From the NCBI GenBank assembly GCA_964106645.2, contig OZ067049.1: 64,000 bases of DNA; one strand, 5' to 3'. A program made the position numbers. Source of the stretch: Podarcis pityusensis. Lineage: Eukaryota. Positions within the stretch are counted from its first letter, which is position 1; each line of letters opens with the position of its first letter. Positions 1 through 4,756 of the stretch are shown piece by piece.

Positions 1-3000
1 GTGTATTCTTATTATCTTTCCTTGCTAATTTTTCTTCCATCCAGTACTTCACATTTTAATCTTAGCTCCAGAACTTCCTTCTGCAGAATAGACACAGTAC
101 CTGCGCAACTGGCCCTTACTTCAACCCACATTAATTAAAACCGGAACATTGAAACCTCGTAACTTGAGAAAGGCATATCAGATATTCCCCAGAATAGAGG
201 ATGGGAGACCTCTGCAGTATCCGGGGAGTTTTCTACCTTTTCTAAACCCACCCAAAGGGGAAGCTTGAAAGACGTCGGTGGTCTGCGGGGGGATGCCGCA
301 AACAGCTTTCTCGCTGATCAAAGCATGCTTCTGAAACTACGCTAACTCTTGATTTTCCTCTCTCTGAAATCTGGCCAGCTTGCACCCTTCACAAAGTAGA
401 TTTCCCACACAGAATTTCATAATGATAGGGGTAATGCCTTGATTTAACTAACAATGAATAGGATTTTCAGTTTTTTATTATGGCCACATGTGGGGAAGGT
501 GGGATAATCACCGCAGCCAGGAGAATAACAGAGAGATTTCTCTCCCCCACCCCACTCCCCACCACCTCACTTGGGGCTCACAGAAAGATGAAGTGCTCTT
601 CACATTAATGATAACAAGCGCTGAGGCAACTGATTCCTTGCCCTTCACAACGAAGGATGACAGCTAAGGAAGCAGCCTCTCTCTTGGGGTGCTGAGTTTC
701 AAATGTTCATGGAGCAGAACAGGTTGTTTTGTAACTTTGAAGGTGATTTACTTATTACTGGCAAAGGCAGAAAATTAAATTACACACTCTAACCAAGAGA
801 TCAATGTTAACTAAATTGTCGAGGCTCTCTTTGCGTATGGCGGTGTTGGCAAATTTTGCTCATTCTGCTTGGGCTATTAGCATTTTCTTTTTACATTCTT
901 CCCTTGTTTCCAAAGACAAGAAGTTGCCTGAGAGGTTGGGTACAAGTTCTGCCTCAGTGATTCATTAAAACGGAGCTGAAGGAACGGAAGTCGGTGCTTT
1001 TCTTAGGGGTGGGGTGGGGAGGGGGAGGGTGCTTTATTGTTCTAAATACTGCTGTGAATGCCAATGATTCGAAGGCTGCGGAAAGCGGCCTTAATGAGCT
1101 TCAGCATTTTAATGTACTGCAGGTTCCCAATTGTACAAATTTAAGAAGCTTAGCAATTCAGTATCTCCTGAATAATAGCATTTATTTTATACTCTGAATA
1201 CACTCGGGGAAGCCTTGATAATATTGCAACTTCTTCGCAGTGTAATAGCTTTACAGGGCCTAATTGACTTGAACAGTGGAATTGGTCCTTTAAAACACAC
1301 ACTCATTCTCGTTCCCTCCGTCTCTTTTGATTAATGAGCCTGGTAATAAATCATTAATCTTTTTGCCTCATAAATTATATGAATAGTGTTTGGGGGGTGG
1401 GAAGGTTTGCTGTGTTCCCCCGCCCCTTTGAGATTGCCTTGCAGGCATGGGGTGGAATTTGGGCACTAGACAATGGCAAAATTCTCACGGATTGCAAGCT
1501 TTCTGAGCTCATAATGGTTTTGTTTCAAAATGTGGAATCTTGAATTCATAGGAAATGACCTGCTTTAATTTTATAAAACATCTAGAGAATACGGCCAAGG
1601 AAGAAATTGTTCACTCTCTCTCTCTCTGAGTAGTCATTTTTACCATATCAAAGCAACAAGTGTCCTTCATTTTGAAGTGCCTTAACAGAATCTCTGAAGG
1701 AGTGAAGGTCATTTGCCAATCACTTAAATTTCATCACTTTTCTTGGTGCTAAATGACAAGTTGTATAGTACAAAAGGCAAGGAAAGGTGTTCACCACTGA
1801 GAAACTGCAGACTGTTATAGGAAATTAGAAAGCAATGTTATGGGGTTGTTGGGTTTTTTTGGGGGGGGGCGGTGCTTGTCACAAAGGTGTACTTCAATAA
1901 CCTATCCCCCAACACCCAGCCACCCCTCTCATTAAATAGTTTTATTATATTGGAACTGGGATGGAGATGGAGGGAAAAGGGGCCAATGTCATATTCCGGA
2001 ATCCTTTGCTGTGTTGAACATTCCTGAGTGTTTCTGTGAAATTTTCTCCTTCAGTTGTTCCAGGCACAAACCTGCTTCTGCTATTCCCTGAAACACAAAA
2101 AAGTAAACAGTCAAAATCAACTTAAACATGTGCACCACAGAGTATATTGCATCTATTGATTTTGAGACATCACTCTGTAATTTCTAGGTTAGATTCATTA
2201 CATGCAGTGCTTTTTTTCTTTAAAAAAATGTTAAAGGGTACTCTCATTTTCCTACTCATGTTGAAATACTGCCCCTCAATGAGGCCAAACTTTGATTCAC
2301 AAAATGTTTAGGGGTATGTGTACCCCTGTGTCCCCCCAGAAAAAATCAATGATTATATGTGAGGCTGCCTTTGAAGACAGTTCAGAAACTGCAGCTAGTG
2401 CAGATTTTAGCAACCAGATTATTGACTGGGACCAGAAGATCTGACCATATCACACCAATTCTGGTGTGGCTGCACCGGCTACCAGGCTTAATTCAAAGTA
2501 CTGGTTTTGGACTTCCGGGTTGGCGCCATCGCCGAATGGCGGACTCCCTCCGAGCTCCGGAGGGAGTCTGCTCGGCAGGGGCTGGGTCCTACCGCACCGG
2601 CGATGCGGGGACCCTTAAAAACCACGGCCACGAGGGCCGTGGACATGGAGACTCGGCTGGCACCGTTAGCGCCCTCCCGACTCGTGAAGGAGCCTTTTTA
2701 AAGGCTACGGATCGGGTGCCGGGGAGAAGCGTGGTGCTTTGAGTCCTCTGCTATCCCTGCCGAGCGCAGCCGCATGCCATTCGGCGGAGAGCGCTGACTT
2801 CTTCCATTGAAAATTCGGACTTCTTAACAACAACCCGTGAGTAATTTGGAAACCGGGTTCAAAAGGAGGAAAAAAAAGAAATTTTTTTTCGGATTGGACA
2901 CGAGCGGGGGGGGATCCAAAAAGGAAGTCAGTCCCCCCCCCTACTGTAAACCTTCCAAAACAAGGACGGGGAAACCAAGGTCCAAAAAGATTTGTATTGC

Positions 3001-4756
3001 TGATAAAAACTAAGAATTCCACGATGGGGAACTATAAGAACTGTGCTGGAGGAAGAATTGAGGGAGAAGAAACGTAACCCCCCCCCCCCTGGGAACCGGG
3101 GTGATTGAAGAGAGAGCCTGGTGAAAAGAGTCGGAGATTTTGACAGCTGTCAAAGTAGCTGTCAAAGTCGGAAAGCAGAGAGGATTTTATTATGAGAACC
3201 TTGCTGGTTAAATTTGTTACAATTTGCTATAACTCGTTAAAACTTGGATACAAAATGGCGAAAACATGGATAACAATCGGACTTTTGGACTAGAGAAAAC
3301 AAAGTTACAACAATCCCCCTAGAGGAGTTTCGGGACATTACAAAGATGGTCGTAAGTGGAAAAATACCATTGGAATTTTACAGGACTGGTTATCTTCTGG
3401 GAAAGCTGCAAAACGGAAATAATATTTTGTCTACAGGGTGTTCAGCTAAAGGAGACAATAGAATTTTCTATTGAAGAAAGGAAGGGACTGAACGCAAGTT
3501 TTTGTTCCTGAATAACAATAATCCCTGCAGAGTTACTAAGCTTCTGAATTAGAACGTTTTAGCAGCGGAACAAGAGGAAATTGGACTACAATTTGGAAAG
3601 AACAATGGGGGGAGTTTTATTAAAGATCTGAAGTTAAGTGTTTTTTTTTAAAAAAAATAACTATAAAAAGAAAAAGCCAGCAAGGAGTTGGGGGAAATAG
3701 GTGATTTATGGACTTTAAGAATTCCAGGCGGATAACATGGTTTGGTGGTCAGGGGGAAATTAAACCGGGGACAGGGGGGGGAGAACTAACATCCAAAGGC
3801 TTGTTAACTTTTTTTTTTTTTTGAACTGGCTCTTTTTCATCTATTATACTTTTTATTTCTTATTTCTGATATTTCTATTGTGTGGGGTGTCCTTATTATT
3901 AAAAAAAGGGAAATTGTGGAATGAAAATGGGGTGGGCCCTGGGAGAGAATTTTTGTCTTTTATTAAGGGTATTGATGAGGAGTGTATAAATTTTAAATTC
4001 GGATAATGGTCTAAACAAATTAAGTTTCAATTAGAACTGAGAGCTTGTGGAGCCAACAATATGAAAGAGGAATATGGTAGGGGTGGGGGAAGGGGGGAGT
4101 CCCGGAAAGTGGATGTATGAAAATAAGGCTTTGAATGTATTTTAATTCTTACTTTCTGTATTTTTGAAAATCTTAATAAATATCATTTGAAAAAAAAAAA
4201 AATCAAAGTACTGGTTTTGAACTGTAAAGCCTTAAGCAGCTCAAGGTCTGCCTCTCCTTACATGAACCAGCCTCCCTTCTCTATCTGCCTCATTGAAAGG
4301 AGGTACAGAGGGTGGCCTTGTGAGAATAGGCTTTTTTAGTGGTGGCCCCCTGCGTGTGGAATGCTTTCCCTGCAGAAACATGCCTGGCACCATCACTGTC
4401 ACTTTTTGATGCCAGACTATGGCATTTCTATTCTGTCAATGACTTCGATAGTTAAACTAGCCTCTACTCCAGGGCTCATTTTTTGTGGGATGGGGCCAGG
4501 GGTCAGCAAACTTTTTCAGCAGGGGGCCAGTCCACCGTCCCTCAGACCTTGTGGGGGGCCGGACTATATTTCGGGGGAAAATATGAATGAATTCCTATGC
4601 CCCACAAATAACCAAAATATGCATTTTAAATAAAAAGACACATTCTACTCATGTAAAAACACGCTGGTTCCCAGACCATCCGCAGGCCGGATTTAGAAGG
4701 CAATTGGACCGGATCTGGCCCTTGGGCCTTAGTTTGCCTACCCATGGGGTAGAACA

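What the first reader, a model, noticed from the sequence alone, without database searches (positions are those of the whole stretch)
2510..4202. 1.7-kb ORF-less retroposon with its own CpG-rich promoter-like head: candidate non-autonomous L1-dependent family
Seen: perfect 17-bp TSD, AATAAA plus A-tail, G-rich 3' tract and no long sense ORF. The 5' ~300 bp retains many CpGs and starts GACTTCCGG (ETS/GABP-like) followed by CGCCAT and ATGGCGG (YY1-like). There are no tRNA A/B boxes. Established: long TSD plus poly(A) is the L1 TPRT signature, and L1 5' UTRs are internal Pol II promoters. Inference: this is a young, apparently full-length Pol II-driven parasite of L1 (5' UTR joined to 3' UTR without ORFs), neither a classical SINE nor a 5'-truncated LINE. 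A retrocopy of a lncRNA is the alternative. It lies sense to RBMS3, so it could supply both an internal promoter and a premature poly(A) site.
Basis: partly seen in the sequence, partly recalled or inferred. Interest (0 to 1): 0.72.

Follow-up and report, generated by a model that had tools for sequence, protein, structure and literature searches.

The report
ORF-less L1 copy in lizard intron
A 1.7-kb retroposed insert in an intron of a lizard RBMS-family gene starts with the published 5' end signature of lizard L1 elements and has the size and composition of an L1 5'UTR joined to a 3'UTR, with no protein-coding part, so other L1s must have copied it; whether it belongs to a multiplying family could not be tested.

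Summary
The insert spans 2510-4202 and is flanked by a perfect 17-bp target-site duplication. Two uninterrupted paralogues of the host repeat confirm the empty site. AATAAA lies 9 nt before a pure A13 tail. There is no sense ORF over 80 codons, no Pfam, Rfam or tRNA match, and CpG is kept only in the first ~400 nt.

The insert is most likely an ORF-less L1. Its first bases, GACTTCCGG...ATGGCG, match the published 5' extremity consensus of Anolis L1 clade 1 (GACTTCCGGTG-N8-ATGGCG; PMC5381506). Split at its composition change point (3801), the two parts match that clade's 5'UTR and 3'UTR:
- 5' part: 1,291 bp, GC 46.3%, 53 CpG (published 1,268±198 bp, 45.2%, ~56 CpG).
- 3' part: 389 bp, GC 31.9% (published 345±118 bp, 33.1%).

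Three ORF-level homologues of the 5' part exist in unnamed assembled contigs. They differ from the window by frameshifts, so the sequence is non-coding.

Not shown: copy number, the deletion or splice junction, promoter activity, and any effect on the host gene. No second copy lies in the window, and no genome of the source organism was available. A one-off dead-end copy and a true non-autonomous family remain about equally likely. I take the window to be from a lizard, probably a lacertid, not human.

The parts
2493..2509 (.). Left copy of the 17-bp target-site duplication (TCAAAGTACTGGTTTTG)
   Evidence: The paralogous empty site is shown.
2510..4202 (+). Whole retroposed insert, 1,693 bp (1,680 bp plus A13)
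2510..2541 (+). L1-type 5' terminus: GACTTCCGG, a 17-nt spacer (with CGCCAT at 2524-2529), then ATGGCG
   Evidence: One match in the window and 0 of 100 shuffles. The published Anolis L1 clade 1 consensus is GACTTCCGGTG-N8-ATGGCG (PMC5381506).
2510..2909 (+). CpG-island-like head: 36 CpG, GC 63% over 2510-2839
2511..2842 (+). Self-complementary domain of nested inverted repeats: 2511-2522/2831-2842, 2530-2540/2776-2786, 2570-2580/2755-2765, plus local hairpins at 2539-2571, 2622-2642 and 2691-2706
   Evidence: RNA fold -172.7 kcal/mol against -133.8±5.7 for shuffles, z -6.8, 0 of 100 shuffles as stable. It is the only strongly structured stretch among 17 scan windows, and the antisense strand gives z -7.5. 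Repeat arms are listed. Function unknown.
2536..2742 (+). 68-codon ATG ORF plus stop inside the head; treated as a chance or upstream ORF of the UTR
   Evidence: Homologue P0001 is 60 of 68 identical, with the same start and stop. No Pfam match.
2837..2842 (+). GTGAGT, a splice-donor-like hexamer at the head/body boundary, retained in the insert
   Evidence: Whether it acts as a donor is inference only.
2843..3800 (+). A-rich body (A 36%, C 15%) with homopolymer runs; presumed remainder of the L1 5'UTR
   Evidence: Composition. Homologues P0002 (maps to 2774-3319) and P0003 (maps to 3508-3692). The 3' limit is set only by the T-content change point at 3801.
3801..4189 (+). T-rich 3' part (T 39%, GC 31.9%) with T14 at 3809-3822 and a G-rich purine tract at 4077-4100; presumed L1 3'UTR
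   Evidence: Lizard L1 3'UTR features (poly-T and poly-C tracts, 345±118 bp, GC 33.1%) come from PMC5381506. No sequence-level test was possible.
4175..4180 (+). AATAAA polyadenylation signal, 9 nt before the tail
4190..4202 (+). Pure A13 tail
4203..4219 (.). Right copy of the 17-bp target-site duplication
2353..2492 (+). Left flank: an old copy of the 3' part of a LINE, the host repeat that was hit
   Evidence: It aligns with paralogues at about 40.5-40.7 kb and 63.0-63.2 kb. The 63-kb copy follows an ORF with an RVT_1 domain.
4220..4600 (+). Right flank: continuation of the same host repeat
27713..27790 (+). Context: RBMS-family RRM exon of the host gene, same strand as the insert, about 23.5 kb downstream

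Best explanation
The insert is an ORF-less derivative of a lizard L1 of the long-5'UTR type (Anolis 'clade 1'). About 1.29 kb of L1 5'UTR, with its CpG-island head and its 5' terminal initiation motif, is joined to about 0.39 kb with the features of an L1 3'UTR. ORF1 and ORF2 are missing.

Shown: the RNA was polyadenylated after its own AATAAA and was copied into an old LINE fragment in an intron of an RBMS-family gene, leaving an A13 tail and a 17-bp duplication.

Inferred:
- The copying was target-primed reverse transcription by L1 proteins supplied in trans, because the element encodes none.
- The ORFs were lost by splicing of an L1 mRNA, by an internal deletion in a source copy, or by template switching.
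- The head can still start transcription at its first base, as L1 5'UTRs do.

Whether this copy is a dead end or one of a multiplying non-autonomous family is open. I put each at roughly half of this explanation.
For: 1. Retroposition hallmarks: a perfect 17-bp TSD, a single AATAAA and A13. The empty site is confirmed by two paralogous repeat copies.
2. 5' terminus: GACTTCCGG is at base 1 and ATGGCG at base 27. The combined pattern has 1 match in the window and 0 of 100 shuffles. PMC5381506 (section 'Evolution of the 5'UTR', read in full) gives GACTTCCGGTG-N8-ATGGCG as the conserved 5' extremity of Anolis L1 clade 1, and GGACTTCCGGTT as that of zebrafish L1.
3. Size and composition: split at the T-content change point (3801), the 5' part is 1,291 bp, GC 46.3%, 53 CpG, and the 3' part is 389 bp, GC 31.9%. 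The published clade 1 values are 5'UTR 1,268±198 bp, GC 45.2±2.9%, about 56 CpG, and 3'UTR 345±118 bp, GC 33.1±5.8%.
4. [quoted passage not shown]
5. No coding capacity: the longest inner sense ORF is 80 codons. 0 of 16 ORFs scanned had a Pfam hit at E up to 10 (16 of the 52 ORFs listed). Homologue P0002 aligns only through 6 frameshifts.
6. Not a Pol III SINE: no Rfam family and no tRNA.
7. L1 is active and diverse in a lizard (20 families in Anolis), and LINE machinery acts on other transcripts (passages of PMC5389967).
Against: - No L1 sequence from this genome was available, so no part of the insert was aligned to an L1. The link rests on a 15-base published consensus plus length and composition.
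- The spacer between GACTTCCGG and ATGGCG is 17 nt, not 10, and bases 10-11 are GT, not TG.
- The paper reports two CpG islands 300-400 bp apart and no low-complexity regions in lizard 5'UTRs. The insert has one CpG island, and 8 of its 10 homopolymer runs of 7 nt or more lie in the 5' part.
- The 5'/3' boundary at 3801 was chosen from composition, so the agreement in length is partly built in.
- A G-rich tract is reported only for Anolis families L1AC_17 and 20, which are listed as clade 2.
- An L1-like ORF2-tail fragment elsewhere in the window shows no similarity to the insert: local alignment score 32 against 31.9±3.8 for shuffles, with 97 of 200 shuffles as high, and tblastn best E 0.93.
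- ETS-type start sites also occur in host genes (recalled).
- The published consensus is from Anolis, a distant relative of the lacertids suggested.
Confidence: 0.7

Rival explanations
1. The insert is a retrocopy of a host non-coding Pol II transcript, either a mono-exonic lncRNA or an unspliced, promoter-proximally polyadenylated transcript of a CpG-island gene. That transcript happens to start at an ETS motif. L1 copied it once in trans.
For: - The head looks like a housekeeping CpG-island promoter or first exon. It ends at a consensus donor GTGAGT (2837-2842), followed by AT-rich, intron-like sequence and one AATAAA.
- No L1 protein remnant was found.
- Only one homologue was found per region in the protein collections, each with 1 member on 1 contig, as expected for a low-copy gene.
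- ACTTCCGG and AATGGCGG are each no more frequent than chance in the window.
- Non-coding RNAs are known to be retrocopied by L1 (abstract start of PMC7692494 in the listing).
Against: - The exact first 9 bases, together with a downstream ATGGCG, match the published L1 start of lizards and, for the 9-mer, of zebrafish.
- Length, GC and CpG count fit L1 UTRs.
- The strongly purine-rich sense strand and the poly-C and poly-T runs fit L1 UTR descriptions.
Confidence: 0.12
2. The insert is a 3'-truncated L1. A full-length L1 transcript was polyadenylated early at an internal AATAAA, so the whole insert is 5'UTR (possibly with a few bases beyond it) and holds no L1 3'UTR.
For: - The same 5' terminus evidence applies.
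- Clade 1 5'UTRs reach 1,465 bp in Anolis and could be longer in another lizard lineage.
- All three database homologues map to 2536-3692 and none maps to the last 500 bp, though only 1 of 3 sense frames was searched.
- The 3' part was never matched to any L1 3'UTR sequence.
Against: - 1,680 bp exceeds the published 5'UTR range of 792-1,465 bp.
- Composition changes sharply at 3801 to a T-rich, GC 31.9% segment with a T14 run, which fits the 3'UTR description.
- No ORF1-like reading frame runs into the tail.
Confidence: 0.1
3. The insert is a decayed retrogene. The parent encodes a small basic protein like P0002 (175 aa), and the window copy lost that frame after insertion.
For: - P0002 is an open 175-codon frame in a homologue, with the same ATG and the same stop position as the window.
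- A frame this long arose in only 0.2% of 5,000 composition-matched simulations.
Against: - The window copy differs from P0002 by 6 frameshifts and 3 in-frame stops within 546 nt, while its TSD and A-tail are intact and its head keeps its CpGs.
- All 3 window stops are TGA opposite W in P0002. This is what a gene caller using a TGA=W code would produce on the same non-coding sequence (inference).
- P0002 has no Pfam family and no relative other than itself among 12 candidates.
Confidence: 0.03

Closest known systems
Lizard L1 'clade 1' elements (Anolis L1_AC1-15; Boissinot and Sookdeo 2016, PMC5381506)
   Same: - Starts with GACTTCCGG followed by ATGGCG.
- Has a CpG-island 5' end.
- The 5' part matches in length (1,291 against 1,268±198 bp), GC (46.3 against 45.2%) and CpG number (53 against about 56).
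- The 3' part matches in length and GC, has T-rich and poly-C runs, and ends in AATAAA plus poly(A).
   Different: - No ORF1 or ORF2, so it is 1.7 kb instead of 6.4 kb.
- Spacer of 17 nt instead of 10.
- One CpG island, not two.
- Homopolymer runs in the 5' part.
- A G-rich 3' tract.
- The host is probably a lacertid, not Anolis.
Human SpIREs, spliced integrated retrotransposed elements (Larson et al. 2018, PMC5860796; abstract and outline read)
   Same: - L1 copies made from an L1 mRNA that lost internal sequence.
- They keep the L1 insertion hallmarks.
- They need L1 protein supplied in trans when ORF1 is damaged.
- They are described as evolutionary dead ends.
   Different: - SpIREs lose parts of the 5'UTR or the 5'UTR-ORF1 region and keep ORF2. 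Here both ORFs are gone and the 5' head is intact.
- Splicing as the cause is not shown here.
ORF-less deletion derivatives of other LINEs: RIME/ingi in Trypanosoma brucei, NARTc/L1Tc in T. cruzi, TRE5-A derivatives in Dictyostelium
   Same: - Non-autonomous elements that keep the 5' promoter-bearing end of the autonomous LINE and rely on it in trans. Abstract starts of PMC1874656, PMC5814959 and PMC3159450 were seen in the listing.
- That RIME is the two ends of ingi joined is my recall.
   Different: - These are other LINE clades and other hosts, and they are proven multi-copy families.
- Here only one copy has been seen.
Mammalian L1-dependent Pol II parasites: HAL1 and SVA/LAVA (recalled; LAVA abstract start seen in the listing)
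   Same: Non-coding or half-coding elements with poly(A) and L1-type TSDs, mobilised by L1 in trans.
   Different: - HAL1 keeps ORF1.
- SVA and LAVA are composites without an L1 5'UTR promoter.

Membership tests
L1-type (TPRT) retroposed insertion | Target-site duplication of about 7-20 bp flanking the insert | tested here: met
   17 of 17 identical. Two paralogous repeat copies carry one copy of the site.
L1-type (TPRT) retroposed insertion | 3' poly(A) tail preceded by a polyadenylation signal | tested here: met
   AATAAA at 4175-4180 and A13 at 4190-4202.
L1-type (TPRT) retroposed insertion | Nick site resembling 5'-TTTT/AA-3' on the bottom strand (recalled consensus) | tested here: inconclusive
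   The bottom strand at the tail junction reads 5'-CTTTGA/ATTAAG-3' (read). It is AT-rich but not the canonical site.
Lizard L1 clade 1 (as described for Anolis in PMC5381506) | 5' extremity GACTTCCGGTG-N8-ATGGCG | tested here: inconclusive
   GACTTCCGG matches 9 of 9 at base 1 and ATGGCG is present. Bases 10-11 are GT, not TG, and the spacing is 17 nt, not 10.
Lizard L1 clade 1 (as described for Anolis in PMC5381506) | Long 5'UTR (792-1,465 bp), GC about 45%, about 56 CpG | tested here: met
   1,291 bp, GC 46.3%, 53 CpG if the boundary is put at the composition change point 3801. The boundary is my choice.
Lizard L1 clade 1 (as described for Anolis in PMC5381506) | Two CpG islands 300-400 bp apart; no low-complexity regions in the 5'UTR | tested here: not met
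   One CpG-rich block (2510-2909). 8 homopolymer runs of 7 nt or more lie in 2510-3800.
Lizard L1 clade 1 (as described for Anolis in PMC5381506) | ORF1 (about 1.07 kb) and ORF2 (about 3.76 kb) | tested here: not met
   The longest inner sense ORF is 80 codons. There were 0 Pfam hits in the 16 ORFs scanned. It is therefore not an autonomous L1; at most it is a derivative.
Lizard L1 clade 1 (as described for Anolis in PMC5381506) | Sequence homology of the UTRs to an L1 consensus | not testable with these tools
   No eukaryotic DNA collection or repeat library was on hand. The only L1-like piece in the window shows no similarity.
SINE | Pol III head derived from tRNA, 7SL or 5S; length under about 600 bp | tested here: not met
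   No tRNA. No Rfam family at E up to 1. Length 1,693 bp, with a T5 run inside the head.
Processed pseudogene of a protein-coding gene | A reading frame, intact or decayed, homologous to a host protein | tested here: not met
   phmmer of one read-through sense frame against 1.84 billion representatives found only 3 short unnamed ORFs. There were no Pfam matches. The other two sense frames were not searched.
Amplifying non-autonomous LINE derivative (RIME/NARTc-like family) | Many dispersed copies sharing the same internal junction, each with its own TSD | not testable with these tools
   0 further copies in the window.
SpIRE-like spliced L1 copy | The missing segment is bounded by GT...AG in the full-length parent | not testable with these tools
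   No parental L1 sequence was available.

The most novel reading that the evidence does not exclude
The insert is one member of an actively multiplying, Pol II-transcribed, ORF-less family in lacertid lizards. The family keeps the L1 internal promoter and the L1 3' end and lives entirely on L1 proteins made by others. It would be a reptile counterpart of RIME/ingi or SVA, overcoming L1 cis-preference without any coding capacity. The 330-nt self-complementary CpG head may be part of how it is recognised or escapes silencing. One weak hint: the contig that carries homologue P0001 is 1,745 nt long, close to the 1,693-nt unit length. That is what a collapsed repeat or a full-length transcript would give.
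Probability: 0.35. Interest if true: 0.6.

Novelty: new member of a known kind. Interest (0 to 1): 0.4.

Why it matters
Non-mammalian L1s are diverse but low in copy number, and L1-dependent parasites other than SINEs are hardly described outside mammals. An L1 reduced to promoter plus 3' end shows that lizard L1 machinery can act in trans on an RNA with no ORF.

If many copies share the same junction, it would be a natural minimal L1. That would define which RNA parts suffice for trans-mobilisation in a reptile.

Locally, the insert places a CpG-island promoter-like head, a donor-like GTGAGT and a canonical AATAAA in the sense strand of an RBMS-family intron, about 23.5 kb upstream of an RRM exon. 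It could create an alternative start or a premature end of the host transcript. That is inference only.

Tried and rejected
- BLASTN of the insert against the whole window found only itself and low-complexity matches of 34 nt or less.
- tblastn of all six read-through frames against the rest of the window gave a best E of 0.44.
- Local alignment of 3200-4190 to the L1-like 3' fragment at 26830-27240 scored 32 against 31.9±3.8 for shuffles, with 97 of 200 shuffles as high. I had seen a shared motif order by eye, and this was chance.
- tblastn of P0004, P0005 and the window's ORF2-tail-like ORF against the insert gave a best E of 0.93. My by-eye match of 3230-3345 to an ORF2 tail is rejected.
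- Rfam, ARAGORN and Pfam on 16 of the 52 ORFs found nothing.
- Pfam on P0001-P0003 found nothing.
- A PDB search with the ORF2-tail-like ORF gave only chance hits at E above 1. Its L1 identity therefore rests on my recall and on two Podarcis proteins with non-L1 names.
- The listing of cluster members and the protein atlas were unavailable.
- The bacterial promoter/terminator scan has no bearing on a vertebrate.
- Telomerase RNA, 7SK, 7SL and ribozyme origins of the structured head were considered and dropped, because Rfam found none.
- Literature searches (listings only unless stated elsewhere) showed no description of an ORF-less L1 family in lizards. This is weak evidence of absence.

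
Full report
**Source and scope.** I take the window for a squamate, not human. The host repeats are reptile-type LINE remnants. The only named database relatives of a repeat ORF in the window are two Podarcis proteins at 76% and 84% identity. The window holds two N stretches, which I left alone. No genome of the source organism and no eukaryotic DNA collection were on hand, so copy number could not be measured.

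**The observation.**
- The insert runs from 2510 to 4202, 1,693 bp. It is bounded by TCAAAGTACTGGTTTTG at 2493-2509 and 4203-4219, 17 of 17 identical.
- Exact 17-mers recur elsewhere in the window because of repeats (156 overlapping 17-mer pairs 0.3-8 kb apart). Identity alone is therefore not the argument.
- The argument is that the two flanks are halves of one old LINE 3' fragment. Two uninterrupted paralogues of that fragment (about 40.6 kb and 63.0 kb) read straight through the site with a single copy of the 17 columns. This is a paralogous empty site.
- AATAAA (4175-4180) is the only such hexamer in 2400-4300. It lies 9 nt before 13 pure A.
- The G-rich purine tract is at 4077-4100.
- 52 stop-to-stop ORFs of 30 aa or more overlap the region on both strands. 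The longest sense ORF wholly inside is 80 codons.
- CpG observed/expected is 0.91-1.00 in the first 300 nt and 1.6 in the next 100. It is mostly 0-0.7 afterwards, against 0.34 for the window.
- There is no tRNA and no Rfam family at E up to 1.

**Coding capacity.**
- 16 of the 52 ORFs (12 sense, 4 antisense) had no Pfam match at E up to 10.
- One read-through sense frame, with stops as X, was run with phmmer against 1.84 billion representatives. It found 3 proteins at E up to 0.001, all short, unnamed and from assembled contigs.
- P0001 (68 aa) is 60 of 68 identical to the ATG ORF at 2536-2739.
- P0002 (175 aa) maps to 2774-3319 with 126 of 174 residues identical, but only through 6 frameshifts.
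- P0003 (82 aa) maps to 3508-3692 with an indel.
- In the 90%-identity collection, P0001 and P0002 each stand for 1 sequence on 1 contig, of 1,745 and 931 nt. There are no further relatives (1 of 1 and 1 of 12 candidates).
- The frame is not kept between homologues, so the sequence evolves as non-coding DNA.
- A 175-codon open frame arose in only 0.2% of 5,000 composition-matched simulations. However, all three in-frame stops of the window copy are TGA opposite W in P0002. I infer that P0002 was probably called with a TGA=W code on equally closed DNA. This could not be checked.

**What it is.** A paper on L1 evolution in vertebrates (PMC5381506: passages, sections on the 5'UTR and 3'UTR read in full) gives the key comparison.
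- It states that the long 5'UTRs of Anolis L1 'clade 1' have a remarkably conserved 5' extremity, GACTTCCGGTG-N8-ATGGCG. Zebrafish L1s start with GGACTTCCGGTT.
- The insert starts with GACTTCCGG at its first base and has ATGGCG at base 27.
- The pattern GACTTCCGG-N(2-25)-ATGGCG occurs once in the window, at 2510, and in 0 of 100 shuffles. The two motifs taken singly are not above chance.
- The paper's Table 2 gives for clade 1 a 5'UTR of 1,268±198 bp at GC 45.2±2.9% with about 56 CpG, and a 3'UTR of 345±118 bp at GC 33.1±5.8%.
- The insert has a sharp change in T content at 3801. Split there, it gives 1,291 bp, GC 46.3%, 53 CpG, and 389 bp, GC 31.9%.
[quoted passage not shown] The insert has T14, C9 and C12 runs.
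- I conclude that the insert is most likely an L1 reduced to its 5'UTR and 3'UTR.

**Misfits.**
- The spacer is 17 nt, not 10, and bases 10-11 are GT, not TG.
- There is one CpG island, not two.
- The paper reports no low-complexity regions in lizard 5'UTRs, yet 8 of the insert's 10 homopolymer runs of 7 nt or more lie in the 5' part.
- A G-rich 3' tract is reported only for L1AC_17 and 20.
- The boundary at 3801 is my own choice.
- Nothing was aligned to a real L1.
- The one L1-like piece in the window (an ORF2-tail-like ORF at 26834-27016, identified by recall) shows no similarity to the insert.
- Anolis is a distant relative of lacertids.

**How it works.**
- Shown: a polyadenylated RNA with this sequence was reverse-transcribed into the genome with a 17-bp duplication.
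- Inferred from established L1 biology and from PMC5389967 (passages: LINE machinery also amplifies non-autonomous elements and pseudogenes; L1 has 20 families in Anolis): the enzyme was L1 ORF2p acting in trans, since the insert encodes nothing.
- The bottom-strand nick site reads CTTTGA/ATTAAG. It is AT-rich but not canonical.
- Loss of the ORFs could come from splicing of the L1 mRNA, as in human SpIREs (abstract of PMC5860796), from an internal deletion in a source copy, or from template switching. None of these can be told apart here.
- A donor-like GTGAGT (2837-2842) sits at the end of the head but was not used.

**An unexplained feature.**
- The head (2511-2842) is a closed set of nested inverted repeats.
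- As RNA it folds to -172.7 kcal/mol against -133.8±5.7 for shuffles (z -6.8, 0 of 100 shuffles as stable).
- In a scan of 17 windows of 330 nt, only the two that overlap the head have z below -5 (-5.57 and -6.53). The other 15 lie between -2.08 and +1.50.
- The antisense strand folds as well (z -7.5), so the strand and the level (DNA or RNA) at which this matters are open.
- The outermost helix pairs the very 5' end with the GTGAGT region.

**Family or one-off.**
- Against a family: there is no second copy in 64 kb, and only single homologues turned up in the collections.
- For a family: homologues of the 5' part exist at clearly different distances (88% and 72% residue identity), and the P0001 contig is 1,745 nt, close to the unit length.
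- These homologues could just as well be 5'UTRs of full-length L1s.
- I leave the question at about even odds within the main explanation.

**Host context.**
- An RRM exon at 27713-27790 on the + strand is 21 of 25 identical to human RBMS1 (PDB 1x5o, E 3.2e-10).
- The insert is therefore sense to an RBMS-family gene and about 23.5 kb upstream of that exon. That the gene is RBMS3 is my recall.
- A sense AATAAA and a promoter-like head in an intron could affect the host transcript. Nothing here tests that.

**Verdict.** The reading 'L1 5'UTR joined to 3'UTR without ORFs, mobilised by L1' is the best explanation (0.7). 'Family', 'young' and 'acts on the host gene' are not shown. In kind it belongs with known ORF-less LINE derivatives, so it is a new member of a known kind unless a family is demonstrated.

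Noticed in passing
window 2511-2842: The CpG-rich head is a nested set of near-perfect inverted repeats. It folds far better than shuffles on both strands (z -6.5 to -7.5). No Rfam family matches it, and its function is unknown.
   Followed up: partly
P0002 against window 2774-3319: All three in-frame stops of the window copy are TGA aligned with W in the database protein. This suggests the contig was gene-called with a TGA=W code, and that the 175-aa 'protein' is an artefact.
   Followed up: partly
window 26834-27016 (+): A 61-codon ORF that I recall as the C-terminal tail of a non-mammalian L1 ORF2, followed by an AT-rich stretch. Its only database relatives are two Podarcis proteins with unrelated names, one annotated as small integral membrane protein 3 isoform X2. 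That annotation probably includes repeat-derived sequence. No Pfam or PDB support was found.
   Followed up: partly
window 62320-63144 (+) and 62990-63200: An open 274-codon frame with a reverse-transcriptase domain (RVT_1, E 8.7e-19), followed by the same 3' sequence as the repeat hit by the insert. This is a fairly well kept LINE copy whose clade was not determined.
   Followed up: no
window 27713-27790 (+): RBMS-family RRM exon preceded by a pyrimidine tract and AG, and followed by GTAAGT.
   Followed up: partly
window 14173-14455 and 16579-16706: Two runs of N (283 and 128 bases). They were left as they are. A copy of the host-type repeat abuts the first one at 14456-14561.
   Followed up: no
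window 33166/40840, 36312/37623, 43370/43862: Other exact direct repeats of 17 nt or more lying 0.5-7.7 kb apart, presumably further interspersed repeats. They were not examined.
   Followed up: no
window 3809-3822 and 4190-4202: The T14 run in the 3' part is perfectly complementary to the A13 tail, 368 nt away. In the RNA it could pair with the poly(A) tail.
   Followed up: no
window 4758-4789: A (CTT)n microsatellite of about 10.7 units, just downstream of the host repeat.
   Followed up: no
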